This document shows, piece after piece, positions 11,085-53,777 of a stretch of DNA of 64,000 bases. Both the position numbers and the translations under genes were made by a program. The notes beneath the pieces are model-generated. The model was given only the letters and a program-made list of their open reading frames with translations. It was not told the origin of the DNA and searched no databases. Source of the DNA: Lineus longissimus (taxonomy: Eukaryota). Where the stretch lies: NCBI RefSeq assembly GCF_910592395.1, contig NC_088313.1:17702500-17766499 (forward strand), in the 5' to 3' direction. Numbering within the stretch: position 1 is the stretch's first letter; every line of letters begins with the position of its first letter.

Positions 11085-12305
11085 ATGAATTACACACCAG
11101 GACCTAACAGCACCGAGGTGTCGGGGACATTCTTACCCACCGAACTCCCGGCTGCAAACATCACGAAAAATATCACTGAACCCCACGAACCGGTCGGGGA
11201 ATGGATCAAAGCAATGACTATACCGTTCTATGTCGTCATCTTTGTCGTCGGCGTGACCGGAAATAGTCTTGTTGTTTTTGTCGTTGCGCGGAACAAAGCC
11301 ATGCAGACGATCACTAATATTTTTATAACAAACCTTGGATGTGCTGATATAATGATGTGTCTTCTTGCTGTGCCTTTCACACCACTCGCAGCGTTCCTGG
11401 ATGACTGGCCTTTCGGGGAGGTGATGTGCCAGATTATACCAATGTCACTGGCGGTCAGCGTCTTTGTTTCAACCTTGACCTCAACCGCCATTGCTATTGA
11501 CCGATATTTTGTGATAGTTTACCCGTTTAAGCCACGGATGAAGGCATGGCTCTGCTTGCTGTTAATAATATCAATATGGATCATTTCCTGTTCTGTCTCC
11601 TTGCCCCTGGCTATATACCGTAGGATAACAGTGGACAATGGAGATAGACAATGTGGTGAAGACTGGCCAGACATTAACTCAAGAAAGTTCTGCATTATTA
11701 CGTTATTTTTCTTACAGTATGTTGTACCATGTTGTGTCATTACGTTCTGCTACTGGCGAGTTTCTGGCGTGCTGCGAATGCGCGCTAAAGCTAAGATAGG
11801 AAGTGGAAACAAATCACGGGAAAAAGAAGAGATGGAAATCCGTCGTAAGCGAAGAACGAATAGGATGCTGATCGCTATGGTGGCTATATTCGTCGGGTGC
11901 TGGATGCCTTTGAATGTCGTTCTCCTGACGCAAGAAGCCCACCCTAGAATTGAAACTTGGCAATGGCTCAAACTGATTTTCTTCATTGCACATATCATCG
12001 CCATGAGCTCCGCGATATACAACCCCTTCCTGTACGCGTGGATGAATGAAAATTTCCGAAAGGAATTTAAACAGGTTCTGCCCTTCTTATTCTCTGGTCA
12101 TACACACAGCAAACTGAACGGCAGCATGACGCAGTACTCTACTGTCGACACGACACATACGGTTGTCGACCGATCGCCCATGCGCGAACGAAACGGAAGT
12201 AACGTTGGGACGGGCAAGACCACGCAGGCGCACTATGATGTTGATTCAGAAAAGGTTCATTTGAAAGTTGCCGAGGATGGCGATGAACCAAGGGAAGAGG
12301 TATAG
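11085..12305 (+). CDS. Class A (rhodopsin-like) neuropeptide-type GPCR, intronless, 406 aa
   Basis: Seven hydrophobic segments. N-terminal N-glycosylation sites NST/NIT. GNSLVVFVV...TNIFITNLGCAD (TM1-2). TM3 Cys followed by AIDRY (DRY-type motif). CWMP in TM6. NPFLYAWMNENFRKEF (NPxxY plus helix 8) resembles NPFF, QRFP, PrRP and orexin receptor tails. Single uninterrupted ORF. Confidence 0.9.
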   Translation: MNYTPGPNSTEVSGTFLPTELPAANITKNITEPHEPVGEWIKAMTIPFYVVIFVVGVTGNSLVVFVVARNKAMQTITNIFITNLGCADIMMCLLAVPFTPLAAFLDDWPFGEVMCQIIPMSLAVSVFVSTLTSTAIAIDRYFVIVYPFKPRMKAWLCLLLIISIWIISCSVSLPLAIYRRITVDNGDRQCGEDWPDINSRKFCIITLFFLQYVVPCCVITFCYWRVSGVLRMRAKAKIGSGNKSREKEEMEIRRKRRTNRMLIAMVAIFVGCWMPLNVVLLTQEAHPRIETWQWLKLIFFIAHIIAMSSAIYNPFLYAWMNENFRKEFKQVLPFLFSGHTHSKLNGSMTQYSTVDTTHTVVDRSPMRERNGSNVGTGKTTQAHYDVDSEKVHLKVAEDGDEPREEV

Positions 12306-34600: not shown

Positions 34601-36068
34601 AAATAGAATAGTGCAGAGAGAAATTTCACAAGTTTTTAACGATAGAGAAATTTTCCACTTACTTTCCTTCAAAATCAACAGTGCCCTGCAACGCCCTGAC
34701 ACGAAGTGCATCACCTTCTATTATGATCGTTGGGCTGGTGTAGCAAACGATATCCTGAAGAGAAAGAAAAGATATCATATCACATATCATATCAAGGACA
34801 ATCAGTAACGAAGACCTACTGAGAGACGCTAACCTGAAGCCCATATCAGAATTGGTGAAGGAACGAAGATGGCAATGGTTGGGCCATGTGCTCCGAATGC
34901 CTGCAAACGCATTGCCAAGGAGAGCACTCACATGGACACCACAGGGGAGACGGAATAGAGGCAGACCAAGAGAGACCTGGCGGCGTTCCATGGCAAAGGA
35001 ACTTCAAGAGAAGGGCCTAACGTGGGAGGCAGCCAGACAGCGAGCAGCCAACAGACTTGAGTGGAGGACCCTGGGGCACGCCCCATGTGCCACCTAGGGC
35101 ACGAAGGGTCCTAAGTAAGTAAGTATCATATCAAAGTAACAAGAGGAAGTAAGAGTACCACCAATACAGCAGGTTATTTTTTTAGAAGCCTGAAGGCGAG
35201 ATACCTACAACATTTGGATCAGGGTGATAAGTCAATGGCCCTTCCAACTGCCATTGGTCCTCCGCACTCCTCGCAGTACCATTGTCATCAAAGTCAACCC
35301 GAGCCTTCAGACGAATTCCATGGTTCGCCTTCAATGTCGGTAGTTTCTTGATGGCCTTGGAATAATCATTGGTGCTGGTACCAAAGTTACGCTCATGGCA
35401 AAGGACTTCCCCTGGGTAGAGTGGGAAGGGTTCTCCATGGAAGCGAACATCAAAATGTCCATGTCTCAACTCGGACAGCTTTCCAGGCTCATATTTCCTG
35501 CAAAGTAAGATAGCAGAAGAGAGTTGATGACAAAGTATGTAAGATTGTTCCACACTCTGATGAAAGCAAATCACCTAAAATACTTGTTGTATTACATGTA
35601 AACTGTGTGGTGTACTGTCATATCTCTAGTGTTGTGGGATCTTTGCAAATACCTTTTAAGCTTAATTTAATCATGATAGCCCAATTTTAGACATGATTAC
35701 AAACATCATACTCACACAATAGGATTCTGAATGGTGCAATAGTGACCTGGAGGGACAATGATGAAGGGAATGGGACCCATTGTCAGAACTTCATGAGTCT
35801 GCAGACACAGAGACTGTGGCCCTTCTTCTATCTTAGTAACATTAGTTCTCTGAAAATGAAATGAAAGGATAAGGCCTGTCATTGTCAACTAACTTAACTA
35901 TGGCTCACGGCTTCAGGCGGGCTTGGCCTCGGCCTGAAATGCACTGCCAAAAAAGCCTAAAATGGACTGCTAAAAAGTATCAAATGACATAATCATAGGC
36001 CGAAGAAAACTCACCTGGTCCAAAATATGGACAAACTGAAGATTGGGGATTCCAATAATTTTACTCAT
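28698..36068 (-). CDS. MVP: Major vault protein (MVP) gene, about 20 coding exons (CDS span)
   Basis: Exon 1 (36015-36068) encodes [18 protein letters not shown] followed by a gtgagt donor; human is [21 protein letters not shown]. Exon 2 at about 35717-35852 reads [14 protein letters not shown]. The 35205-35510 exon reads [15 protein letters not shown]...[11 protein letters not shown]. Later exons, in order along the minus strand, contain:
- [10 protein letters not shown].
- [27 protein letters not shown].
- [17 protein letters not shown].
- [35 protein letters not shown].
- [19 protein letters not shown].
- The coiled-coil cap-helix region [19 protein letters not shown] and [15 protein letters not shown].
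- [34 protein letters not shown], ending at the stop codon 28698-28700. Confidence 0.9.
30696..30760. repeat. Fragment of the same Tc1-like MITE family as 61220-61401
   Basis: tacagtggaacctcccttagcggacacct matches the terminus tacagtggaacctccctaagcgtacacct of the element at 61220. Lies in an MVP intron. Confidence 0.4.
34790..35135 (+). mobile_element. 5'-truncated non-LTR retrotransposon (LINE, RTE/CR1-like) 3' end, antisense in an MVP intron
   Basis: The [80 protein letters not shown] matches the C-terminal tail motif common to many animal LINE ORF2 proteins (WLGHV.RM...RGRP..TWRR.....L...GL.W.EA...A..R..WR). It is followed by a (TAAG)n microsatellite tail. Confidence 0.65.
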
Positions 36069-37453: not shown

Positions 37454-39136
37454 GTTTAGATTCTGATGTCACAGTTGTACATCAAAGTCCACAGAGATCC
37501 GAAAGAAAGGAACAAAGATCTGCAACACCAAACTCCACCTCTAAGAATCAGACAATTTTGAATTCCTACTTTGATATCAAATCTACTCCAACAACACCAG
37601 TAGGAAAACAGACTGGTTCCAATTCTTCAGGTAAAAGATCTTCCCAGAAAGCATCACAATCCAAGTCAGCTAGAGCAAAAAGGAGATTATCGACTGAAGA
37701 TTCAAAGGTGCCTAAGTCTAGATTAGGAAAGAAGAAGAGAGGAGCTTTACAATCTCAAACATCCTGTCGCAAGAAGAGAGTGCAAACCTATGTCATTGAT
37801 GACAGTGATAGTGATGTAGTTTGTATCGGAGATGCGGAGAGGGCTACATCGAAACAGAAAATGTTTGACGACTTTGTTGACAACGAGGAAAAGCGGGATG
37901 CTGTGAAATCAATTGATGTTGAAAGTGTTGATACTGCTGCAACTGAATCTTCATCAAAAGGTTGTACAAATTTCAACGAATTGGATGAAGATGTGTGTCC
38001 AGGTGCTGAAGGATTTCAGAATTTTCAACTTGACAGATCGGATTCTGAAGAGGATGTGTTCACTGGAAATTCGAAAATTGATCATGCTGTGGAAGAACTG
38101 TTTTCTGATGAAATGGATGATGAAGCTGGTGAAGTCTTACCCCTTGACAGATCTGAAGAGGACGTATTCACAGGTAGTGTCTCAAGCCACTTAAAAAAAG
38201 ATGTATCTGGGGATAACCTGTATCCTGGTGGTGAACTTGGTTGTTGCACTGTGTTTTCACGCGACATTTCGGAAGAGAATATTTTTTCAGGCAATATGAC
38301 CAGCTCAAAACGTGTAGGGGAAGAATGTCAAGAGGACATATTTCTAGATCTGGAAGACATCTCAATGAGAGATTGTGCAGTGAAACCATGTTCCCAAGGG
38401 GGCTCCTTACTGACATTGACAGAGGATACGAATCGGGACCATGGTGCGACAAGTATTGGACATGACAATGCCACAAAGGTTGAAAGCAATGATACCGGTT
38501 CCAAAGATGTTAGCCAAAAAGATTTTGCGCCACCTTCTAGTGACTTCCCCTCCCTAGATGAGGGTGAAAGTGATGATGAATTCTTTGCAGCTTTAGACAT
38601 ATTAGAGGAGAACCAGCGTGTGACGCGGAGTGATAAAGATTCCATTGAATCAACTGCGTCCTCTGTTTCTTCTACTTTAGCATGTGGTCAACAACCGTCA
38701 AGAACTTCTGGTTTGCTCAGCACCCTCAGTAATTTATCATCTCAGTTTTCCCTGTTTTCTGGAAGAAGTACATTGACATCCTCTGTACCGGACTCAGAAA
38801 CAGTGGACTCTACTGGAAAATCACAAAGCAGCAGCAATGAGGTTCAGGAAACTGGTTACAAAGTGAATTCTAATGCTTCAAAACAAACTTCAATCAGTTC
38901 ATTTTTCAAGGCTAAGTTTTCTGTGTCTTCGAATGGTGTACCGCTAAGCGTCGCTGCAGGGACTCGGAGTAAAAGCATGACTGCCACAAAAACTCAAAGA
39001 CAATCAAAGGAGGAATCGTCTCAGTCTCAGCCAAACGCTTACCAATCTGACAGCAGTGGAACAAGCAGTAACTTCAGTCATCTCCAGGTTTATAGTGGCA
39101 GCAAGAGATCTTGTCCATTCTACAAGAAAATTCCAG
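37454..39136 (+). CDS. DCLRE1A: DCLRE1A/SNM1A-like coding exon 2, a large Ser/Asp/Glu-rich low-complexity region ending in the conserved CPFYKKIPG
   Basis: Acceptor ttctggcttgcag|gt. ORF continuous to ...GSKRSCPFYKKIPG. Donor ccag|gtttgt. Human SNM1A has [22 protein letters not shown] at the same junction. Confidence 0.8.
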
Positions 39137-39475
39137 GTTTGTAAAACACAAAAGCATTGGTGAGCCCTTGATTTTTACAGTTTCAGCGAAGATCAGGTTC
39201 CATTCAAGTCTATTCGCAGGTTAAAAACAACAACGTGTCTTTTCATTATCCGAATGGTTACATATTTTAGGAGTACCAGGTTTGTCCAGTACATGTATGG
39301 TGTATGTACATGTATGGGAGTAGAGTTAGAGTCCTATTGAAACTGAAGCAATTCTGGAGTGATGGAAAAAACAGAATGAGTTTTCTACATTTCTCTACAA
39401 TGCTCATGAACATACCTAAAGCTATATTGGATGTACTTGTGCCACTATCACAACTTATTCCTTTCCTTCTTTCAG

Positions 39476-39609
39476 GCACTGGCTTTACTGTTGATGCATT
39501 CCGTTATGGTACAATTCCAGACTGTACAGGGTATTTCCTCACCCATTTTCACTATGACCACTATGGGGGACTGGCTAAAAAGTTCTCACAGCAGATCTAC
39601 TGCAATCAG
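39476..39609 (+). CDS. DCLRE1A: DCLRE1A-like exon 3, metallo-beta-lactamase HxHxDH motif
   Basis: (G)[44 protein letters not shown]. Acceptor ttcag at 39471-39475; donor cag|gtaaat. Confidence 0.9.
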
Positions 39610-39743
39610 GTAAATTCCTCAACAAGCTGCAACTTTGAATAGGTTAAATAGGGTATAACAAGTCAAATACTGAGACCAGAGTAATAATGTATTCATCATT
39701 TGAGTTGACAGAAAGTTCAGGTCTCTGGATATGCTCTTTTCAG

Positions 39744-44710: not shown

Positions 44711-45124
44711 GTGTGAAAATCACCATGCCAATTTCAATCTTGTGGTTCACAACTTAACGGCTGATTATCCTTTTATTTTCAGTTTTCTCCTTAATAAGAG
44801 TTACATAAACCAGAGAAACGTCTAGTTTTGGGCACCAAGTTGGGCCAGAGGCCAGCAAATGTAGGAACTTGGGATTTGGCCAGACTGGTGGATTATATCT
44901 GCTGGCAGGTCAGCAGTTTGTCCCTCTACAGATGACTGTTGACAGCAACCTGGCCATGAAGGGGGTAAGTAATACCTGCACTTGTATTGATTGGCGCATA
45001 TTGGGGTGGGTTGACAAGTCATGCAGTGTTCTTTTAAAAAAATGCAAGTTATATACAATTTACTATTGATTATGGTGGTTTTCTTGTCTTCTCTTTTTAG
45101 CCTATCATCAGCAAGACTGCGAGC

Positions 45125-46094
45125 ATGGAACTCACACCTAGTGGGGTACTTCCTGATTTGCCGCACCTCTCTTTTCCAATGGATCACCAATTGAGTCCAG
45201 ATTTGAGCACGTACGCATCGAGTCCAAATTCACTCTTCATGTATGAACAAGAACGCAATGACATGCAGAATTCCTTTAATCCAAGATGTGCATCAAGGTC
45301 CCGCTATCACAGTAGCATGTCGGAATCCAGCGACTCCATGCAAGTGGAAGGCATGGATATGGAGTATGTGCAGATGCCCGATTTTTTGTCAAGCTCGTAC
45401 AGTTCCTGTGACACAAGTGCCCCACTGGAGGGGACGTCGCAACCAGAGACAGTATGGGAGGGAAGCAATTTCAACAGCCCCGGCAGTGTTAAAATGGAAG
45501 ATGTTTTCCAAACAGATGCAGTCGCAAATAAAGGTCCGACGTTGGCTGCACTGAATGCCAATGGTGAATGTGACGAGTCGATTTTCGATGATATCGAAAG
45601 TGTAATCCGAGATGATTTGGCTACATCAGATATGTCTGCTTTGGAGTGTCCGCTTCCCACGAGCAATGCCCAGGACGTCAAGCCTAAGATTGTACGGCCA
45701 TTGTGCTCCAAGCCTCAGACATTTTTTTCGACTGCTTCGCCTCCCATCCGGAATCCATCGCAAGTGACTGCCATGTCGTCTTTTACATCTACTGCCCCTC
45801 TGCCCAACGACCAAGAATCTGCACAGGACAATAAGGTATCCTTGCACAGACTTCTCATGCAAAAGTCTGTTGGTGAGATGCCTACCCAATCAGTGCCGAG
45901 TCCTCCTTGTTCTCTACCCAGTCCAAGTATGATAGTGCCCAATGATTCCAAAGTCAGCTTGAAGCGATCTCTACACGTGGATGATCAGAAATGGGCAGAG
46001 GTAGAGCGGTTTTTGCACGAGGAAAAACTTTTACCAGCAAATGGGGCTAAAGCTGAATTGGCTGCAACTGGTGTTAGTGGCAGACTTCGACATG
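45125..46094 (+). CDS. CREBRF: CREBRF-like gene, first coding exon
   Basis: ORF MELTPSGVLPDLPHLSFPMDHQ...FMYEQERNDMQNSFNPR... resembles the human CREBRF N-terminus ...DFMYELDREMNYQQNPRDNF. It ends at donor catg|gtgagt in phase 1. Confidence 0.8.
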
Positions 46095-46761
46095 GTGAGT
46101 ATTTTCAATCCTGTACTTCTTGTGTGTGTCTGCAGTCTGTGGCTGTGACACCGTTATTGACGACTATTTAAATTCTAGCTTAGTGTTACCTGTGAACTCG
46201 GAAATTTTACTATTTATGATGGCGGCCTTTAATATTGCGTCACTGATGTGACAAAATCTTGACTGTAATCTGAATTGATCTATAAATCTTTAATGTCTTG
46301 ACTTGACTGTACATAACAATTTACATGATGTTGTGATGATGGCTGTTGTCGCCCAAAATCCTGTATAAAATATGAATTGTCTTAGTAATAATTATAGTTT
46401 ATTTTCTTCTTGATAATAATTGTACAATTTATATATATTTTGTAGAAGTAAAGTCTTTTTAAAAAGTTAGCTGATTTCATTTCGAGGACATGAGCTGCCA
46501 GAAGGATGAACAAAGAAATGATTTATGATTCTGAACCCGTGTCCTATATTGTCATAAAATAATAGTATATTAATTTTAATAAGTACTCATCTTGATAAAG
46601 AGGGTTGATCAGCATGGGAATTTTACCAATTCACATTGTTCATACCACAACATGTGTCTTGAATATTTTGGTTTCCCATTTTTGAATGGAAGTGGGTGGG
46701 AGTTTTGGCAGAGCCGGTGGGAGGTTAAAGAAAATACTTCATAAGGAGTTTCTTGTTGCAG

Positions 46762-46890
46762 ATTCCAATGCGTCTAGCACAGTGTCGCACATGTCCCATA
46801 TAAAGGAGGAGATAGACTCGCACGACGAAGGCTTTGGAAGTGACCATGGGGAGAGTGAGGCAGATGATCGAGATTGGCTCTCAGAATCTG
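46762..46890 (+). CDS. CREBRF: CREBRF-like exon with acidic DEGFGS motif
   Basis: (D)SNASSTVSHMSHIKEEIDSHDEGFGSDHGESEADDRDWLSES(G). Human has HDEGFGSEHELSENEEEEEE. Acceptor gttgcag; donor ctg|gtatgc; phase consistent. Confidence 0.8.
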
Positions 46891-47862
46891 GTATGCAACC
46901 TCAGGTCCGATGGTATGCAGAGTTCCCAGTGTCTGAGTTACAATTGGTTCCTATGCTCTCCTTATTTTTGCAGGGTTCCTGCTCTCTGTTAGTAAATGAC
47001 ACGCTGTACGAGAAAATGTGCCCTCTTTAAAATGCAGGGACCAAACAGAAGAGCATCGTATGTGAACAGTTTCTTGTACATCGTGTCCTTTAACTTAAGG
47101 GTCAAGTATGCCATAGATTGTTTCATATTTCGATGTAACACCTCGGTCCTAACACCATGTCCGTGCTACATGTGCGAGAAAAAAACTTGTTCTTTTCCCT
47201 TCCCGCTATTGTAATTGTGGATGTTTTTGATAGTCCGGAAATTTGTAAATTTGACATAAAAATTTTAATAATCAAGAGTCATGGTCATGCAACAGTTCAA
47301 TCTTTGGTGACTACTTGAGAGCAAAATATCACCCTGACTAATTATTGAAAATAATGAATGGACTTCAAGATATCGTGAAATTCCACCTTGACTTCAGTTC
47401 TTAATTTCGCGCCTCCATTGTATCCGAACATTACGTGGTCGTTCAGTGGCTCAGTAATAAGTCACAAAAGCACTGGGAACCCTGTGTCCACACTTTTCTT
47501 TGTCATTCTTACATTGCATGTTTTCGTGCAGTCTAATTGATGCGTAGGGTACCTAGCACCTCAAATAGAAATAATTATTATTTGTATGATAGTAGATGGA
47601 GTATATTTCGTTATTTTTTAAATGAAAATTGTGTCTTATTGCTTCTTTGACTTTAGTCTTCACTCTGATGGACATGTCATCATCCATAATTTCTGCTGTC
47701 GTCCTAAGTCACTGCTAAGTATTGTGGATTCTTCCCTCCTGCATGTTTACTGCACTATATCTTGATTGACGAATTGTTGTCTACTGAAAGAATGAGTGAC
47801 CATTCAAAACCCTGCTCCGCTTGTGATGCCATTTGTTGATTGTGTTCCATTCTTATTTGCAG

Positions 47863-48253
47863 AAACCGATGACAGCTATGATCATCTGTATGGCCAGTCT
47901 GGGTCACAAGATCGCCACAAGGAACCACAATATTTCTGGCAATACAATGCTCAGTCGAAAGGTCCAAAACAGTCACGTTTATGCATCCCTGTGTCTTCAG
48001 TGGATCCACATGTTCTCCACAACTTCGAGGATCCGGTGTTCGATCCCGGACACAGAGACACGGCTATCCGCCATGGCGGGAAAGCGAGGAGAGGCGATGG
48101 AAATGATATTCAGCCAAATCCTAAGAAACTTTATCAGATCGGTAACGAGTTACGAAAATTGTCCCAGGTTATCAGCGATTTGTCTCCAAGTGGTAACGTG
48201 CCAGTGAGTGTCCGGAACAAGTCTAAGAGAGAAAAGAACAAACTTGCTTCGAG
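47863..48253 (+). CDS. CREBRF: CREBRF-like exon ending in the basic region
   Basis: ETDDSYDHLYGQSGSQDRHKEPQYFWQYNAQ...NDIQPNPKKLYQIGNELRKLSQVISDLSPSGNVPVSVRNKSKREKNKLAS(R). Human is KRGKRRYFWEYSEQ...DLTPNPKKLLQIGNELRKLNKVISDLTPV...[29 protein letters not shown]. Confidence 0.9.
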
Positions 48254-48702
48254 GTCAGTATGAAGTTGTTTGATGTCCACAAGTTGGAGCTACTGAGGTT
48301 TGACGCATTGTCTTTGGTCCTTTATAAAGAAATCGTGATACTGCCTTTTCAAGGGAGCATTCCAGTGACAATAGCGCGAGTTCCTTTTGCCAAAACAGAA
48401 AAATTGAGCACCAGGAAATGTTTAACATGAAGTGTCTGTTAGAATCATGCACTGTAAGATATCTTAAGCATAGACTTTGACATTTGTTCCATGTTAATTC
48501 CACTCACAGGACATAATATCAATTATTTTTGACCCAAACTGTGACAGGCTTTGCCCTTCTAAGACCTGGAAAAGATAATGCAAACATTCATCCTGGAAGT
48601 TGGGCTAATTCCTAAGTTTTTGAGAGAGGAATGTTGTTGTTCTGGTTCTAACCTTCACCTAGCTTGTGTTGTGAAATTTATTCTTAAAATTTCTTTTTTC
48701 AG

Positions 48703-48776
48703 GGCCTGTCGGCTGAAGAAAAAAGCACAGCACGAGGCAAATAAAGTCAAGCTGTTTGGATTGGAACAAGAGCATG
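48703..48776 (+). CDS. CREBRF: CREBRF-like exon with bZIP-like basic motif
   Basis: (R)[24 protein letters not shown](G). Acceptor tttttcag; donor catg|gttagt. Confidence 0.9.
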
Positions 48777-49427
48777 GTTAGTATATAGCTTTTCACTATC
48801 CTGGAAGTTTATAGCCTGATGGGATTTTCCATGTGTAGCGGTAAAAGGGCTTATAATATTTGTCACTCTGAACTCGAACCCAAAGACTAAACCAACTAAG
48901 ATATATATTTACATTATTTATTATCCACGTCCCTCTAACCTCATTTACAATCGACACTAAAATATTACAAAAATATGGCGCACAATAAAATATCAACAAG
49001 AGATCATATAAAAGAATCTTACCATGCTGTAAGGTCAAGGGTGAAGTCAATTAAAATATTCTGGCGCTTTTCAAGAGAGATGTCTTGTTTAGCTACAGAG
49101 CGTGAAGGCTGGCTTTCTGGATCTGCCAGGACTTACTAAAAACATCTGAACATCATTATTTATACCTAATTATACACACCCCTCATGGGTAAATAGCCTA
49201 GCCCAAATATCAGGCTCTGAGCCAACTAGCACTCAGTAATTAAGGAAACAACCAATCAGTACACAGCAGCATCAATACAAGATTATCAGACAGGGCCAAG
49301 GGCAGGAGCCTAGTAACCAGCTGCTAATCAGGAAGATCATAAAAGGGGTCAAACAGCTTAAAAGATAGAGATTATAAAACAATGAAAAGGAGCAATTAAG
49401 AAAGCAGGTGTTGAAACTCATAACGGT

Positions 49428-52400
49428 TTAACCCTTTCAGCTCGAGTCTCGATTGGAGTCGAGACGAGTTTGAACCTTTTGATGGACGAGTCTCGACTCC
49501 AGGCGAGAGAGCCTCCCTCCCTCTAAAAGATCGTCGATGCTTCGTTTCAGTGTATATTCCGCCAATTAAACACACCCGCTGGGGAATCCCCACATTCCGG
49601 GAATACCTTTTCTATTCATAGCAACTCTGTTGCGCAATCCTGAAACTGGCAAAACGTGGTTGATTTGCTTCGAATTTTCTTGCATTTTGAGACGCCATTT
49701 ATACCAAAATGGCGAAATTGAAGACAGTTGATGATGTGGTTGATGAACTTATGGCAGACTCTGAATCAGACGATGGTGATTTGCCGAGTGATTTGGAGGA
49801 TTATTCTGACGAAGGTGACACTGTAGATCGTGTAGATTCAAAGCATGGCTCGCCTGTAGATATGCATGCTGCTGTAGGGGGTGGGACAGAGGACGAACTG
49901 TCTTCGTACCACACTGATTCTGAGCACACTCAGGCTGAAGATAGTGACTACTCACCAAGTGAAGGAGAAAGAGCTGATATGATGGACATGAGTCTAGCAG
50001 ATGATGAGTCTGATCCTTCAGATGATTTTGATATGAGTGGAAGTGCACCAGCTTCCCCAAGCCCATCACCAACTCCGTCTCCTCCACGTGGTCGAGGACG
50101 CGTTCGTACACGTGGGGGACGTGGTCGTGCCCATAGTCCTGTCAGAGCTCCAGTGCCTTTGTTACCAGCCCAGCCACAGGCACCACCCCCAGCCCCTGCT
50201 GTGCCTGCTCCAGGGCCACCCTTGCCCCAGAGAGGAGGTGGTGGCAGGAGAGGACGAGGACGTGGGAGGGGACGTGGACAGCAACCGGCTGCCCCCCAAC
50301 AGGCTGCAGGCCCTGTATGGCAAGATGATAATGGGGAAGTTCCAAATTGGCTTCCAAATTTGCAGAATCAACACCCAGCAGAGCCTGTGATGGATTGTAC
50401 AGACTTCACCCCTGTGGACTTCTTTCTTGCGGCATTCCCAGAACAAGCTCTCCAACTTATGTGCGATGAAACCAATCGTTATTATTCGCAATGGTACGAG
50501 AAAACAGAGGCTGCTGCCTTGAGGACAGGAATAAGACATTCTGGGGATGAAACTACGAAGAAGCAGTGGAAGGATGTTGATCTAGGGGAGATGAAAGCTT
50601 TCATTGCGATTCTTCTTATCATGGGCAACAATCTAAGGCCCACATACAAGGCATACTCAGGTCGACTGACTGGCTAACTCACATGGAGGGATTTAGAAAA
50701 GTGATGTCAAGAGACAGGTTCCTTCTAGTTCTAAGATTTCTGCATGTAGCAGACAACACTGGGGCTGTTCCTAGGGGGCAGCAAGGATTTGATCGCTGCT
50801 TCAAGATAAGGCAGTTCGCAAATGTGTTGGTTGACTCATGGAAGAGGATTGTCAATCCGGATAAGCATGTATCCGTCGATGAATGCATGGTTGCATTCAA
50901 AGGTCGTGTTGCAATGAGACAATATATGCCCAAAAAGCCAACAAAGTGGGGCATGAAGGCCTGGGTGCTGGCAGGCTCAAAGACAGGGTTCGTTTTTGAC
51001 TGGAAGCTGTACAGTGGAAAGGAGGGAGACAACGTAGAGAGGAATCTTGGGCGCAAAGTTGTCCTAGATCTTACAGATATGTTACCACCTGGACATGAGG
51101 TATATTTCGATAACTATTTCAACAGCTATGAGCTACTCCAGGTCCTTGAAGGAAGAGGATTAGGTGGTTGTGGTACACTGCGTTCAAACAGGACTGCAAA
51201 CCCTGCTGAAATCAAGATGTTCACAACAAAGCTGTCTGCAGCTAGGCTGCAGGCAATGTCACCGATTCTCAAACGCTGTGGCAATATTCTTGCATTGGGC
51301 TGGTATGACAAAAGACCAGTTAGTGTAATGAGCAATATTCACACTGCAGAGATGATGAACAAGAGAGTCAGAGATGCAAATACCCCAGGTGGCCACAGGA
51401 ACATTCGAAAGCCTATGGCAGTTGACCAGTACAATAAATACATGGGAGGAGTGGACTCATCTGATCAGCTCAATTCCTACAATCGCATGGTGAGGAAATC
51501 TCTCAAATGGTGGAAAAAAGTTCTCTTGCATCTGCTGGTCACTGCTGTTTCTAATGCATATGTCATGTACAGGATGGTGGTGCCTAAGGAGCAGCAGAAA
51601 CAAGGATACGAATTCAGAATTGAGGTTGCCAAGGAACTGGTCGTTGGATATGAACGTCGTCCTTCTGTACCGGGCCGTCCAAGTGTGAATCCTGCTCCAT
51701 TCAGGCTGACAGAGAGACACTTCATTGAGAAAGGAGATGGGAAAAAACCTGATTGTGTTGCATGCTGCCTAAGGAGAAACAACAAGTACGTACGAAGGAA
51801 GCAGACAGTGTACCGTTGCAAAAACTGCGTTCCCAAGGTTGCCCTCTGCATCATCCCTTGTTTCGAACTGTATCACACCCAGAAGGACTACAAGGCTAAA
51901 TATGAGGAGTATCTGAGGGCACAAGACCAAAACTAAGACTCTGACTGCAATAGAAAAGACAAGAACAAAGACATGTTAGGTAGAACAAAGTTTTATTGAA
52001 GGTTTGTTCCTGCGCGGACTGAAGACGAAAATTTTAGAATTTCACCTCAAATGGGACTCTTTGTCAAGGGTCCCATGTTGCTTTCTGGGGGTCAATAATG
52101 CAGACCTGACTAGTCCAGGGCAGGCACTTGTTTATTTTTACAAATGTACAATCATTTCTGTGGTTATATTTCATAGGGAAGCATTTATACCTTGGGATCT
52201 ACAATTTTGTCATTTTCAGGTTTTTCGAAAAAAAGTTGCGAGTTTTCAGGGACCTTCTATATACCCCCTAAAATTTTTTGGGGGTGATCTACCCCCTGGA
52301 AAGCTACATATTCTGAAAGATTAGGTAAAATGCTAAAAAAAACTCAATTGGTATTAGGCAATTGCTTGAATGCTTCCCACTGTAAATAGTGTTTGAAATT

Positions 52401-52488
52401 TTCATGTCGTTCATTTTTCTGGTACCTAAAAAATATCCAGTCCACAGTGACCATCAAACTGAAAAATATTCAGAGCTGAAAGGGTTAA
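49428..52488 (+). mobile_element. piggyBac-family DNA transposon with TTAA target-site duplications and 12-bp terminal inverted repeats, inserted in a CREBRF intron
   Basis: Left junction TTAA|CCCTTTCAGCTCGAG... at 49428-49431/49432. Right junction ...CAGAGCTGAAAGGG|TTAA at 52484/52485-52488. The TIR is CCCTTTCAGCTC. It encloses a piggyBac transposase ORF with a DDE core and a C-terminal Cys-rich domain. Confidence 0.85.
49709..51936 (+). pseudogene. piggyBac transposase, about 740 aa, split by a 2-bp frameshift at about 50658-50659
   Basis: Frame 1 ORF 49709-50677 reads ...DFFLAAFPEQALQLMCDETNRYYSQ...MKAFIAILLIMGNNLRPTYKAYS. Frame 2 ORF (ATG at 50683) reads ...RSTDWLTHMEGFRKVMSRDRFLLVLRFLHVADN...DECMVAFKGR...YFDNYFNSYELL...GTLRSNR... 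plus the C-terminal CxxC...CxxC domain. Deleting CA from tactCAggtcgactgactgg restores the canonical YWSTD junction. Confidence 0.8.
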
Positions 52489-52719
52489 CGATCCTGGGTG
52501 TCTGGGTTCACCAGGGCTAGAGAGAAACACAGAAATAATAATTACAGATATACAAATGTAGTAAGCAATTCCTTATATTGTCACACATGAAAAGATGCTT
52601 CAATGCTCGTTGAGTTATTATGGGGCCCAGGTTTCTCACAGATGCACACTGTAGGAAAAACCACATCTGTGTCAACACTACTAATACAGTAGAAGCTCTC
52701 TAAGACACCTTGGAGAATA

Positions 52720-53137
52720 CTTGACTTGCCAAACTCAGAAATGCAGCGCCACTCGCGGACAAAGATAGAACAACTCGACATTTTTTTCACCGGTTTTCGC
52801 TGCGCATGCGTACCAGCCATCCGGAAACTAATAATGGCGGCAATCTGAACGTGTTTTGTAAGTTTTTGAGAGTTCAAAAAGTTCTTTAAGGCTCATGATT
52901 TACGATAATTTAGCAATCTGATAACTATTACGTGTTAAGAAACAGACGTACCACAGTTATAACCAGTTTACCTGTGTAAATTTGCTTTCACTGCGTGTAG
53001 CACAGTTGTTTTTCTCGTCCGTTGCCGCGAAAGAGGACGGTTGGTACGCATGCGCAGCGAAAACCGGGGAAAAAAATGTCGAGTTGTTCTATCTTTGTCC
53101 GGCAGTGGCGCTGCATTTCTGAGTTTGGCAAGTCAAG
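52720..53137. repeat. Large foldback element with arms of about 100 bp and a spacer of about 225 bp, 50 bp upstream of a CREBRF exon
   Basis: Arm A at 52720-52815 is cttgacttgccaaactcagaaatgcagcgccactcgcggacaaagatagaacaactcgacatttttttcaccggttttcgctgcgcatgcgtacca. Arm B at 53042-53137 is its reverse complement with a few mismatches. The arms contain GCGCATGCGC. Confidence 0.75.
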
Positions 53138-53186
53138 TATTGACTAAACAAAGCTGTTGGTCAAAACTTGCATTTCCTAATTTCAG

Positions 53187-53309
53187 GGCAACTAATGCTT
53201 GTACTCCAAGGGATAAAGCAAGAATTGGCAGCTTGTGTGAAAAGTCCTGACAGGGCGAGGTCGGTAAAACTTACCGAGAAGTTGGATCAGCTTTACAAGG
53301 AAAATCTGA
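53187..53309 (+). CDS. CREBRF: CREBRF-like exon, downstream of the piggyBac insertion
   Basis: (G)QLMLVLQGIKQELAACVKSPDRARSVKLTEKLDQLYKENL. Human is NLLFVINSIKQEIVNRVQNPRDERGPNMGQKLEILIKDTL. Acceptor tttcag 53181-53186; donor ctga|gtaagt. Confidence 0.85.
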
Positions 53310-53683
53310 GTAAGTATAAGGCTAATTTGGACAGACTATTGTGTCTGTTCAGTAGCAAAACGTTGTGGGTGAATTTTCCTTTTTTTCATTCCCAAATAAA
53401 AGAAACCTTTCGTTTTTTAAGGGACTATTTGCTAATATGTCTTGAAAAACAATTACAGTGGGCAGCATGCCCTTGTATGATGCTGTGTAACCTGATTTCA
53501 TGCCATATAATATTGATAGTCCTTGCATGCATGAAGCGTTCTTCGTGCTGGTCAACCTTTCGGTTGGGTCATTTCTAGCCCAGCTATGTGGGATCCTTGT
53601 TAAAGACTTGTAGAGGTAAGAATGTCAGAAACAGAAAAGTAAAGGAACAAAGCTTTCAACGATGGTTAATTTACTTTTTCAGC

Positions 53684-53777
53684 GGACATGATCGCTGGCC
53701 ATTCCAGTCAATTTGTACAGTATGTGTTGGGTAAAGTCGCCAAAGGTGACCAGATTGGTGGTTTACGAATGAAGTGA
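53684..53777 (+). CDS. CREBRF: CREBRF-like terminal coding exon (stop TGA 53775-53777)
   Basis: (T)DMIAGHSSQFVQYVLGKVAKGDQIGGLRMK*. Human is GLPVAGQTSEFVNQVLEKTAEGNPTGGLVGLRIPTSKV*. Acceptor tttttcag. Confidence 0.85.

What the first reader, a model, noticed from the sequence alone, without database searches (positions are those of the whole stretch)
49428..52488. Structurally complete piggyBac transposon in a CREBRF intron, disabled by a single 2-bp indel
The element has perfect TTAA target-site duplications, 12-bp CCCTTTCAGCTC terminal inverted repeats and a full-length transposase with the C-terminal Cys-rich domain. This implies a very recent insertion. The only visible lesion is a CA dinucleotide that splits the ORF exactly at the conserved YWSTD motif. 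This is either a freshly inactivated copy, a member of a still-active family, or an assembly error in an active copy.
Basis: partly seen in the sequence, partly recalled or inferred. Interest (0 to 1): 0.6.

Follow-up and report, generated by a model that had tools for sequence, protein, structure and literature searches.

The report
Frameshifted piggyBac transposon in ribbon-worm intron
This is an ordinary but very well-preserved "cut-and-paste" piggyBac jumping gene in an intron of the bootlace worm's CREBRF-like gene; a 2-base insertion has broken its own transposase gene, while an intact sister copy sits on another chromosome.

Summary
TTAA duplications lie at 49428-31 and 52485-88, and perfect 12-bp inverted termini CCCTTTCAGCTC bound a 3,053-bp element. 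Its two ORFs fuse into a 741-aa piggyBac transposase when CA at 50658-59 is removed. That protein has a full-length PF13843 domain, a DDD triad (D390/D467/D582) and a C-terminal Cys-rich zinc finger.

The window is Lineus longissimus (a nemertean). The annotated CREB3-regulatory-factor-like protein maps at about 100% identity to six exons, and the element lies in the 48777-53186 intron, in the same orientation as the gene.

An intact 741-aa paralogue (XP_064648112.1, 99% identical, reading YWSTD) is annotated on a different chromosome. So the CA is a lesion of this copy, and the family still has at least one complete coding copy.

The ends resemble piggyBat. The left end has two imperfect palindromes 44 bp apart, and the right end has different repeats. 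Relatives at 52-57% identity from other hosts share this layout.

Most likely this is a recent, non-autonomous copy that can still be mobilised in trans, from a low-copy and possibly active family. An assembly error is unlikely but not excluded. It is a new member of a known kind and of modest interest.

The parts
49428..49431 (.). Left TTAA target-site duplication
   Evidence: Direct reading. It is identical to 52485-52488.
49432..49443 (+). Left 12-bp terminal inverted repeat, CCCTTTCAGCTC
   Evidence: I4: 16-nt arms including TTAA, 100% complementary.
49443..49464 (+). Left-end sub-terminal unit 1 (element bp 12-33), an imperfect palindrome GTCTCGA-N6-TCGAGAC. Inferred to be a transposase (CRD) binding site.
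   Evidence: (D5, I2). GAGTCTCGA occurs only twice in the 64 kb, both times here. It sits in the same register as the piggyBat left-end motifs.
49487..49508 (+). Left-end sub-terminal unit 2 (element bp 56-77), 44 bp from unit 1
   Evidence: (D5: 82% identity, spacing 44; I2: 89% complementary to unit 1).
49709..50657 (+). Transposase coding sequence, part 1 (codons 1-316 plus the first base of the W317 codon). It covers an acidic Ser/Asp-rich tract, a Pro- and RG-rich tract, and the start of the DDE_Tnp_1_7 domain.
   Evidence: ORF1 as it stands runs on to a stop codon at 50675-50677.
50658..50659 (+). CA dinucleotide insertion causing the frameshift inside the invariant Trp317 codon of YWSTD
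   Evidence: The intact paralogue P0001 reads KAYWSTDWLTHMEGF. Y316 and W317 are invariant.
50660..51936 (+). Transposase coding sequence, part 2 (rest of W317 to the stop). It contains the catalytic D390, D467 and D582 and the Cys-rich zinc finger (C682, C685, C703, C706, C717, H722).
   Evidence: This part is 100% identical in protein to P0001.
51937..52472 (+). 3' non-coding part of the element
   Evidence: The only ORF here (52004-52324) has no Pfam match.
52426..52440 (-). Right-end sub-terminal unit 2 (bp 45-59 from the right tip), CTGGATATTTTTTAG
   Evidence: (D15). Its position is conserved in relatives L001 and L002.
52459..52473 (-). Right-end sub-terminal unit 1 (bp 12-26 from the right tip), CTGAATATTTTTCAG, a small palindrome
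   Evidence: D15; 12/15 self-complementary. Conserved in L001 and L002.
52473..52484 (-). Right 12-bp terminal inverted repeat
52485..52488 (.). Right TTAA target-site duplication
48777..53186 (+). Host intron (GT...AG) of the L. longissimus CREB3-regulatory-factor-like gene that contains the element. It is 4,410 bp, of which 3,057 bp are the element plus one TTAA.
   Evidence: tblastn of P0032 to the window. Splice sites were read. The flanking exons end at 48776 and start at 53187.

Best explanation
The feature is one copy of a piggyBac-superfamily class II cut-and-paste DNA transposon, from the piggyBat/PGBD4-like branch. It inserted at a TTAA inside an intron of the Lineus longissimus CREBRF-like gene, in the same orientation as the gene.

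The mechanism below is inferred from the solved piggyBac and piggyBat systems.

- A transposase dimer binds the terminal 12-bp repeats through its central domains.
- Its C-terminal Cys-rich domains bind the sub-terminal palindromes.
- The DDD active site cuts at the TTAA-flanked tips via hairpin intermediates.
- The element reintegrates at another TTAA, which it duplicates.

This copy cannot make the enzyme. A CA insertion in the Trp317 codon truncates translation after 322 residues, before all three catalytic aspartates. Both ends, both TTAA flanks and all sub-terminal repeats are intact, and an intact 741-aa paralogue exists on another chromosome. The copy is therefore best described as recently inactivated and non-autonomous, but probably still mobilisable in trans.

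Shown here: the anatomy, the family assignment, the lesion, the host gene and intron, and the existence of an intact paralogous ORF. Inferred: that the CA is real rather than an assembly error, that the paralogue is expressed and active, and that this copy can be mobilised.
For: - **Ends.** TSD and TIR are confirmed.
- **Protein.** The repaired ORF is 741 aa. It matches PF13843 over the full profile at 9e-78 and PF13842 at 1.8e-6.
- **Solved structures.** PDB matches are piggyBat 9c0f at 5.7e-50 and T. ni piggyBac 6x67 at 6.5e-21. D390, D467 and D582 align to the catalytic D268, D346 and D447.
- **Invariant residues.** Y316, W317, D390, D467, D582, C682, C685, C703, C706, C717 and H722 are invariant in 16 family members.
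- **Intact paralogue.** XP_064648112.1 is 741 aa, 99% identical with 5 substitutions, and lies on a 16.53-Mb chromosome. The host gene lies on a 21.66-Mb chromosome.
- **Host gene.** Its exons map at about 100% identity on either side of the element, with GT/AG intron boundaries.
- **Left end.** Two imperfect palindromes lie at bp 12-33 and 56-77, 44 bp apart. This matches the piggyBat left end (motifs at bp 11-16, 55-60 and 99-104, each followed by a palindrome bound by CRDs). As in piggyBat, the right end does not repeat the left-end palindrome motif; it has its own AT-rich units, the tip-proximal one a small palindrome.
- **Relatives.** Elements at 52-57% identity from other hosts carry TTAA flanks, related CYCTTT termini and the same sub-terminal layout in register.
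- **No bypass of the frameshift.** There is no slippery heptamer near it.
Against: - No reads could be inspected, so the CA could be an assembly or polishing artefact.
- Only the protein of the paralogue could be retrieved. Its ends and its DNA divergence are unknown.
- Genome-wide copy number, MITE derivatives, insertion polymorphism and expression could not be assessed, because no eukaryotic genome collection was searchable.
- No other copy or fragment is present in this window.
- The 90%-identity cluster of the paralogue has a single member among about 15 billion proteins. The family is therefore low-copy, and recent activity is not demonstrated.
Confidence: 0.87

Rival explanations
1. The CA is an assembly or polishing artefact. 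The copy in the animal would then be intact and autonomous.
For: Everything else in the copy is intact, and the 421 codons downstream of the CA are identical to the intact paralogue. The assembly had one round of short-read freebayes polishing, which can transfer variants between near-identical repeats.
Against: The assembly is 79x PacBio HiFi with hifiasm. The CA is not in a homopolymer or dinucleotide run and is not a tandem duplication, so it does not fit the usual HiFi error mode. Mis-polishing would still require a CA-bearing copy somewhere in the genome.
Confidence: 0.08
2. It is a domesticated PGBD-like host gene, or an old relic, rather than a recently mobile transposon. RefSeq names the paralogue 'piggyBac transposable element-derived protein 4-like'.
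For: The RefSeq naming. The family appears low-copy, with a single protein in the 90% cluster.
Against: This copy has perfect TIRs, TTAA duplications and conserved sub-terminal repeats, which domesticated PGBDs have lost. It sits inside another gene's intron with a broken ORF. It is 99% identical to a copy on another chromosome, which indicates recent transposition. The RefSeq name is assigned automatically by homology.
Confidence: 0.03
3. The frameshifted copy is functional in another way. The 322-aa N-terminal product (disordered acidic/RG-rich region plus part of the DNA-binding/dimerisation domain) could act as a truncated regulator of the family's transposition, by analogy with P-element KP-type repressors. 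Alternatively, the element could alter CREBRF transcripts.
For: ORF1 retains its start codon and upstream region. The element is in the sense orientation within the intron that splits the bZIP-coding exons, and it carries AATAAA at 51433.
Against: There is no evidence of expression, conservation or selection on the truncated form. The annotated host mRNA splices cleanly across the element. This is pure speculation.
Confidence: 0.04

Closest known systems
XP_064648112.1, 'piggyBac transposable element-derived protein 4-like' of Lineus longissimus (paralogous copy on the 16.53-Mb chromosome)
   Same: Both are 741 aa. It is 99% identical (736/741) to the repaired ORF, with an identical catalytic and C-terminal half.
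   Different: It is intact at YWSTD and lies on a different chromosome. There are five substitutions (D51H, H142R, S143N, A241V, L248I), all upstream of the frameshift. Its DNA and ends could not be retrieved.
piggyBat (Myotis lucifugus; PDB 9c0f)
   Same: It is the best solved-structure match (5.7e-50 over residues 284-727). It shares the DDD triad, the C-terminal cross-brace Cys-rich domain and TTAA targeting. Its left end has repeated motif-plus-imperfect-palindrome binding sites with a 44-bp period starting near bp 11-12, and its right end does not repeat the left-end palindromes.
   Different: Protein similarity is only moderate. This element shows two left-end units where piggyBat has three, and the motif sequences differ. 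It has a much longer N-terminal region (about 233 aa before the Pfam domain) with Pro-rich and RG-repeat tracts. The host is a nemertean, not a mammal. Activity is untested.
Trichoplusia ni piggyBac (PDB 6x67/6x68)
   Same: Same superfamily. It shares TTAA duplication, short CCC-initiated TIRs, asymmetric ends, D268/D346/D447 equivalents and a CRD.
   Different: It is more distant (6.5e-21). T. ni piggyBac carries the same 19-bp palindrome in both ends, whereas here the left and right sub-terminal repeats are unrelated. The T. ni transposase is 594 aa against 741 aa here.
Unnamed piggyBac-like elements in ENA/Logan assemblies (P0002-P0005; loci L001, L002, L004)
   Same: They are 48-57% identical over 66-76% of the protein. 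They have TTAA flanks, CYCTTT-type termini, left-end palindromes and right-end CTGAAT(W)n repeats in the same register.
   Different: They are different families by the usual 80% rule, in different unidentified hosts. They are multi-copy with many truncated members, whereas the L. longissimus family has one annotated protein.

Membership tests
piggyBac superfamily DNA transposon | TTAA target-site duplication flanking the element | tested here: met
   TTAA at 49428-31 and 52485-88, immediately outside the TIRs.
piggyBac superfamily DNA transposon | Short terminal inverted repeats starting 5'-CCC/CCY, with asymmetric sub-terminal repeats | tested here: met
   Perfect 12-bp CCCTTTCAGCTC. The left end has two palindromic units 44 bp apart, and the right end has different units 33 bp apart.
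piggyBac superfamily DNA transposon | Transposase with the DDE_Tnp_1_7 (PF13843) domain above the gathering score | tested here: met
   262.4 bits against a cut-off of 22.4, profile positions 1-349 of 349, on the CA-repaired ORF.
piggyBac superfamily DNA transposon | DDD catalytic triad aligned to piggyBac D268/D346/D447 | tested here: met
   D390, D467 and D582 align to them and are invariant in 16 relatives.
piggyBac superfamily DNA transposon | C-terminal Cys-rich (cross-brace zinc finger) DNA-binding domain | tested here: met
   PF13842 at 28.9 bits against a cut-off of 24. C682, C685, C703, C706, C717 and H722 are invariant.
piggyBac superfamily DNA transposon | Further copies in the same genome sharing sequence and ends | tested here: inconclusive
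   One 99%-identical protein-coding copy lies on another chromosome, but its DNA ends could not be fetched. There is no other copy in the window.
Autonomous (self-mobilising) piggyBac element | Uninterrupted transposase ORF | tested here: not met
   The CA at 50658-59 shifts the frame. ORF1 stops at 50677, before all three catalytic Asp residues. There is no slippery site for programmed frameshifting.
Active transposon family | Demonstrated excision or integration, or insertion polymorphism | not testable with these tools
   Needs population or read data, or a cell-based transposition assay.
Domesticated PGBD-type gene | Loss of TIRs and TSD, with an intact ORF kept under purifying selection at a fixed syntenic locus | tested here: not met
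   TIRs and TSD are present, the ORF is broken, and the location is intronic.

The most novel reading that the evidence does not exclude
The family is currently active in Lineus longissimus: the intact chromosome 16 copy supplies transposase, and this copy is a fresh insertion that can be mobilised in trans and may be polymorphic. That would make it the first demonstrably active piggyBac element in a nemertean. It would also be a candidate transgenesis tool for spiralians, or a divergent piggyBat-like scaffold with a conserved RG-rich N-terminal tract for transposase engineering.
Probability: 0.35. Interest if true: 0.4.

Novelty: new member of a known kind. Interest (0 to 1): 0.25.

Why it matters
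For genome biology this is routine annotation: a young class II transposon in an intron.

Its modest value is practical.

- Together with XP_064648112.1 it defines the complete ends plus an intact ORF of a low-copy piggyBat-like family in a phylum where the literature search here turned up no description of piggyBac elements.
- Active piggyBac-like elements are sought for genome engineering. Large-scale mining of 31,565 NCBI eukaryotic genomes has already been done and would presumably have swept this genome.
- The conserved left-end 44-bp spacing shared with piggyBat suggests that this end architecture is ancient within the clade.
- The insertion splits the bZIP-coding part of CREBRF-like by a sense-oriented 3-kb element. 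This could matter for host transcript processing if the insertion is polymorphic.

Tried and rejected
- **DNA of the intact paralogue.** An exact-protein look-up of P0001 found no gene position on record. The TIRs, TSD and DNA divergence of the second copy therefore could not be compared.
- **Window ORFs in the collections.** Exact look-ups of ORF1, ORF2 and the neighbouring GPCR found nothing. This gave no independent assembly or read-derived contig covering the CA.
- **Other copies in the window.** blastn of the element against the window found no other copy, fragment or MITE.
- **Programmed frameshifting.** Rejected: there is no X XXY YYZ heptamer upstream of the ORF1 stop, and the intact paralogue is in frame.
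- **Third left-end unit.** None is recognisable at bp ~100, where piggyBat has its third unit.
- **L003 (P0005 locus).** No recognisable TTAA/TIR pair was found.
- **L004.** This contig starts inside the left end, so no tips are available.
- **Hosts of the closest relatives.** Cluster members of P0002-P0006 carry no organism names, so the hosts remain unidentified.
- **Literature.** Piggybac papers searched do not mention Lineus or Nemertea in the main text. No supplement text is held for the mining paper.
- **ORF in the 3' region.** The 106-aa ORF at 52004-52324 has no Pfam match and is treated as spurious.
Full report

Yes. The sequence reads ...ACGGT TTAA CCCTTTCAGCTC GAGTC... on the left and ...TTCA GAGCTGAAAGGG TTAA CGATCC... 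on the right.

- The TTAA duplications are at 49428-49431 and 52485-52488.
- The 12-bp termini at 49432-49443 and 52473-52484 are perfect reverse complements. Similarity ends at base 13.
- The element is 3,053 bp from tip to tip.
- The 16-mer TTAA+TIR occurs exactly twice in the 64-kb window, at these two positions and in inverted orientation. With up to three mismatches there were 4 matches against 0.57 expected, and none of 100 shuffles reached 4.
- Two long ORFs lie inside: 49709-50677 (322 aa) and 50683-51936 (417 aa), in different frames.
- Deleting CA at 50658-50659 (TACT[CA]GGTCGACTGAC) fuses them into a 2,226-nt ORF of 741 codons reading ...RPTYKAYWSTDWLTHMEGFRK.... No other 2-bp deletion restores YWSTD.

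**2. What is it?**

The repaired protein matches Pfam DDE_Tnp_1_7 (PF13843) over the whole profile: positions 1-349 of 349, 262 bits, E = 9e-78. It also matches the piggyBac C-terminal zinc finger PF13842 at 28.9 bits, above its cut-off.

Among solved structures it matches piggyBat transposase (9c0f, 5.7e-50) and, more distantly, T. ni piggyBac (6x67, 6.5e-21).

- In those alignments D390, D467 and D582 fall on the piggyBac catalytic D268, D346 and D447. The triad is defined in PMC7351741.
- A 16-sequence alignment of the repaired protein with its database relatives shows these columns as invariant: Y316, W317, D390, E391, D467, D582, C682, C685, C703, C706, C717 and H722.
- The CA insertion therefore sits inside the codon of an invariant tryptophan. 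ORF1 terminates upstream of all three catalytic aspartates, so this copy cannot encode an active enzyme.
- There is no slippery heptamer that could support programmed frameshifting.

**3. Organism, host gene and paralogue**

The best database hit of the repaired protein is XP_064648112.1, 'piggyBac transposable element-derived protein 4-like' of Lineus longissimus.

- It is 741 aa, covers 100% of the query and is 99% identical.
- It is uninterrupted and reads KAYWSTDW at the site of the lesion.
- It differs at five residues (D51H, H142R, S143N, A241V, L248I), all upstream of the frameshift. If substitutions were uniformly distributed, that pattern would have P of about 0.015.
- It is carried on a 16,534,156-bp sequence.

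The flanking exons of the window belong to 'CREB3 regulatory factor-like isoform X2' of L. longissimus (P0032, 612 aa), carried on a 21,663,950-bp sequence. tblastn maps P0032 to the + strand of the window in six blocks:

- 45101-46093
- 46752-46889
- 47859-48260
- 48701-48778
- 53186-53311
- 53682-53774

Identity is 96-100%, and the mismatches are edge artefacts at splice junctions. Reading the junctions gives a GT...AG intron at 48777-53186.

- The element lies wholly within this intron and in the same orientation as the gene.
- The element accounts for 3,057 of the intron's 4,410 bp.
- The intron separates exons that together encode the basic-leucine-zipper region.

By size, the two sequences correspond to chromosome 6 (21.66 Mb) and chromosome 16 (16.53 Mb) of assembly tnLinLong1 (PMC8593623). 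The paralogue is therefore a distinct locus. It is not this locus with a corrected frame.

**4. Anatomy of the ends**

- **Left end.** Beyond the 12-bp TIR there are two copies of a 22-bp unit, at 49443-49464 and 49487-49508 (element bp 12-33 and 56-77). They are 82% identical and 44 bp apart. Each is an imperfect palindrome, GTCTCGA-N-TCGAGAC (D5 and I2). The core GAGTCTCGA occurs nowhere else in the window.
- **Right end.** It carries a different 15-bp unit, CTGAATATTTTTCAG, itself a small palindrome, at bp 12-26 and 45-59 from the right tip. The two copies are 33 bp apart (D15).
- **Comparison with piggyBat.** This is the asymmetric organisation typical of the superfamily, and it resembles piggyBat in particular. 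The piggyBat left end has a motif plus an imperfect palindrome at bp 11-16, 55-60 and 99-104, again a 44-bp period. Each is bound through the two Cys-rich domains of a transposase dimer, and its right end does not repeat the left-end palindromes (PMC11707139). T. ni piggyBac instead carries the same 19-bp palindrome in both ends.
- I found no third unit near bp 100.

**5. Relatives elsewhere**

The next-closest proteins are 48-57% identical and come from unnamed ENA and Logan assemblies. Three loci were informative.

- **L001.** The 730-aa ORF is flanked by TTAA+CTCTTTTG ... CAAAAGAG+TTAA, a 12-nt perfect inverted match. The element is 2,970 bp.
- **L002.** The left end reads TTAACCCTTAGGGG, followed by two 20-nt palindromic units 43 bp apart. 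The right end is imperfect.
- **L004.** The contig begins inside a left end that carries the same ATCGTGC...GCACGAT palindromes.

Alignments of the ends show that both layouts fall in the same register in the window element and in these relatives. This holds for the right-end CTGAAT(W)n units at columns ~16-25 and ~48-60 in all three elements. For the left-end palindromes, L002 has both units at ~16-38 and ~59-83 and L001 only the second.

Conservation of position at about 55% protein identity is good evidence that these are functional transposase-binding sites. It also confirms that the boundaries called here are the true transposon ends.

Those related families are multi-copy with many truncated members. 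The L. longissimus protein is alone in its 90% cluster, so the family here seems low-copy.

**6. Most likely explanation**

This is a young insertion of a piggyBat/PGBD4-like piggyBac transposon that has lost autonomy through one 2-bp insertion. It retains every cis feature needed for mobilisation, and a coding-competent sister copy exists in the same genome.

The transposition mechanism (cut-and-paste via hairpin intermediates at TTAA, with precise excision) is inferred from the family, not shown here.

The age estimate is an inference. There are five amino-acid differences in 741 residues and none in the 421 codons downstream of the lesion. That implies a DNA divergence of a few tenths of a percent from the paralogue, so the insertion is recent on an evolutionary scale. 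The TSD and TIR alone, 32 bp in total, say little about age.

**7. Rivals**

- **Assembly artefact.** The assembly is 79x HiFi with hifiasm and one round of Illumina/freebayes polishing. The CA is not in a low-complexity context. I put this at under 10%, but only reads can settle it.
- **Domesticated PGBD gene.** This is contradicted by the intact TIRs and TSD, the intronic position and the broken ORF.
- **Functional truncated product, or an effect on the host transcript.** This is possible in principle, given the sense orientation and an AATAAA at 51433. Nothing supports it, and the annotated mRNA splices across the element.

**8. Novelty**

The literature search found nothing describing piggyBac elements of nemerteans. 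By the usual identity criteria the family is new, since its nearest non-self relative is 57% identical.

It is nevertheless a textbook member of a very well-known superfamily. All NCBI eukaryotic genomes have already been mined for such elements (273,643 recovered; PMC13461360). Hence it is a new member of a known kind and of low-to-modest interest.

**9. Limits**

No searchable collection contained the L. longissimus genome or its reads. Copy number, the ends of the paralogue, polymorphism, expression and the reality of the CA all remain to be checked, as set out under next steps.

Noticed in passing
window 49709-50400 (protein residues ~1-233); alignment A1: The long N-terminal extension has an acidic Asp/Ser-rich tract followed by Pro-rich and RG/RGG-repeat tracts (RGRGRVRTRGGRGR..., RGGGGRRGRGRGRGRG). 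RG-repeat tracts at the equivalent position recur in most relatives. They include P0016, a second L. longissimus piggyBac family on the 16.30-Mb chromosome that is only ~31% identical. This suggests a conserved feature of this clade's N-terminus, and its role is unknown.
   Followed up: partly
window 49443-49508 versus the piggyBat left end: The 44-bp period and the bp 12 / bp 56 register of the left-end units coincide with the piggyBat G/P motif positions (bp 11-16, 55-60), although the sequences are unrelated.
   Followed up: partly
window 49709-50657 versus 50660-51936: All five amino-acid differences from the intact chromosome 16 paralogue lie upstream of the frameshift, and none lie in the 421 downstream codons (P ~0.015 if uniform). 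This is consistent with the differences having arisen under selection on the catalytic core before this copy was disabled, or with chance.
   Followed up: partly
window 49432-52484 versus the flanks: The element is more GC-rich (46% against 41%) but more CpG-depleted (observed/expected 0.48 against ~0.70 in upstream sequence). This may reflect germline methylation of the transposon lineage.
   Followed up: no
L002 2270-4506: The related element in ENA assembly ERZ25067893 is also split into two ORFs (215 aa and 501 aa) and has an imperfect right terminus, so it is a decayed copy. Its 90% cluster contains full-length (765-770 aa) and many truncated members, so it is a multi-copy family in an unidentified host.
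   Followed up: partly
window 11085-12305 (+): An intronless 406-aa rhodopsin-family GPCR (PF00001, 1.2e-58), about 33 kb upstream of the CREBRF-like gene.
   Followed up: no
window 35182-35574 (-) and 37558-39642 (+): An exon with Major Vault Protein repeats lies on the minus strand (PF01505, 3.2e-10). A large Ser-rich exon follows, and then an exon with a weak, sub-threshold match to the metallo-beta-lactamase family (PF00753: E = 0.00067, 20.1 bits against a cut-off of 22.7). This may be a DCLRE1/SNM1-like gene, immediately upstream of CREBRF-like.
   Followed up: no
P0033 (JGI, 326 aa): A JGI 'hypothetical protein' is 78% identical to the L. longissimus CREBRF-like N-terminal exon. It is presumably from a related nemertean present in an environmental or transcriptome data set.
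   Followed up: no
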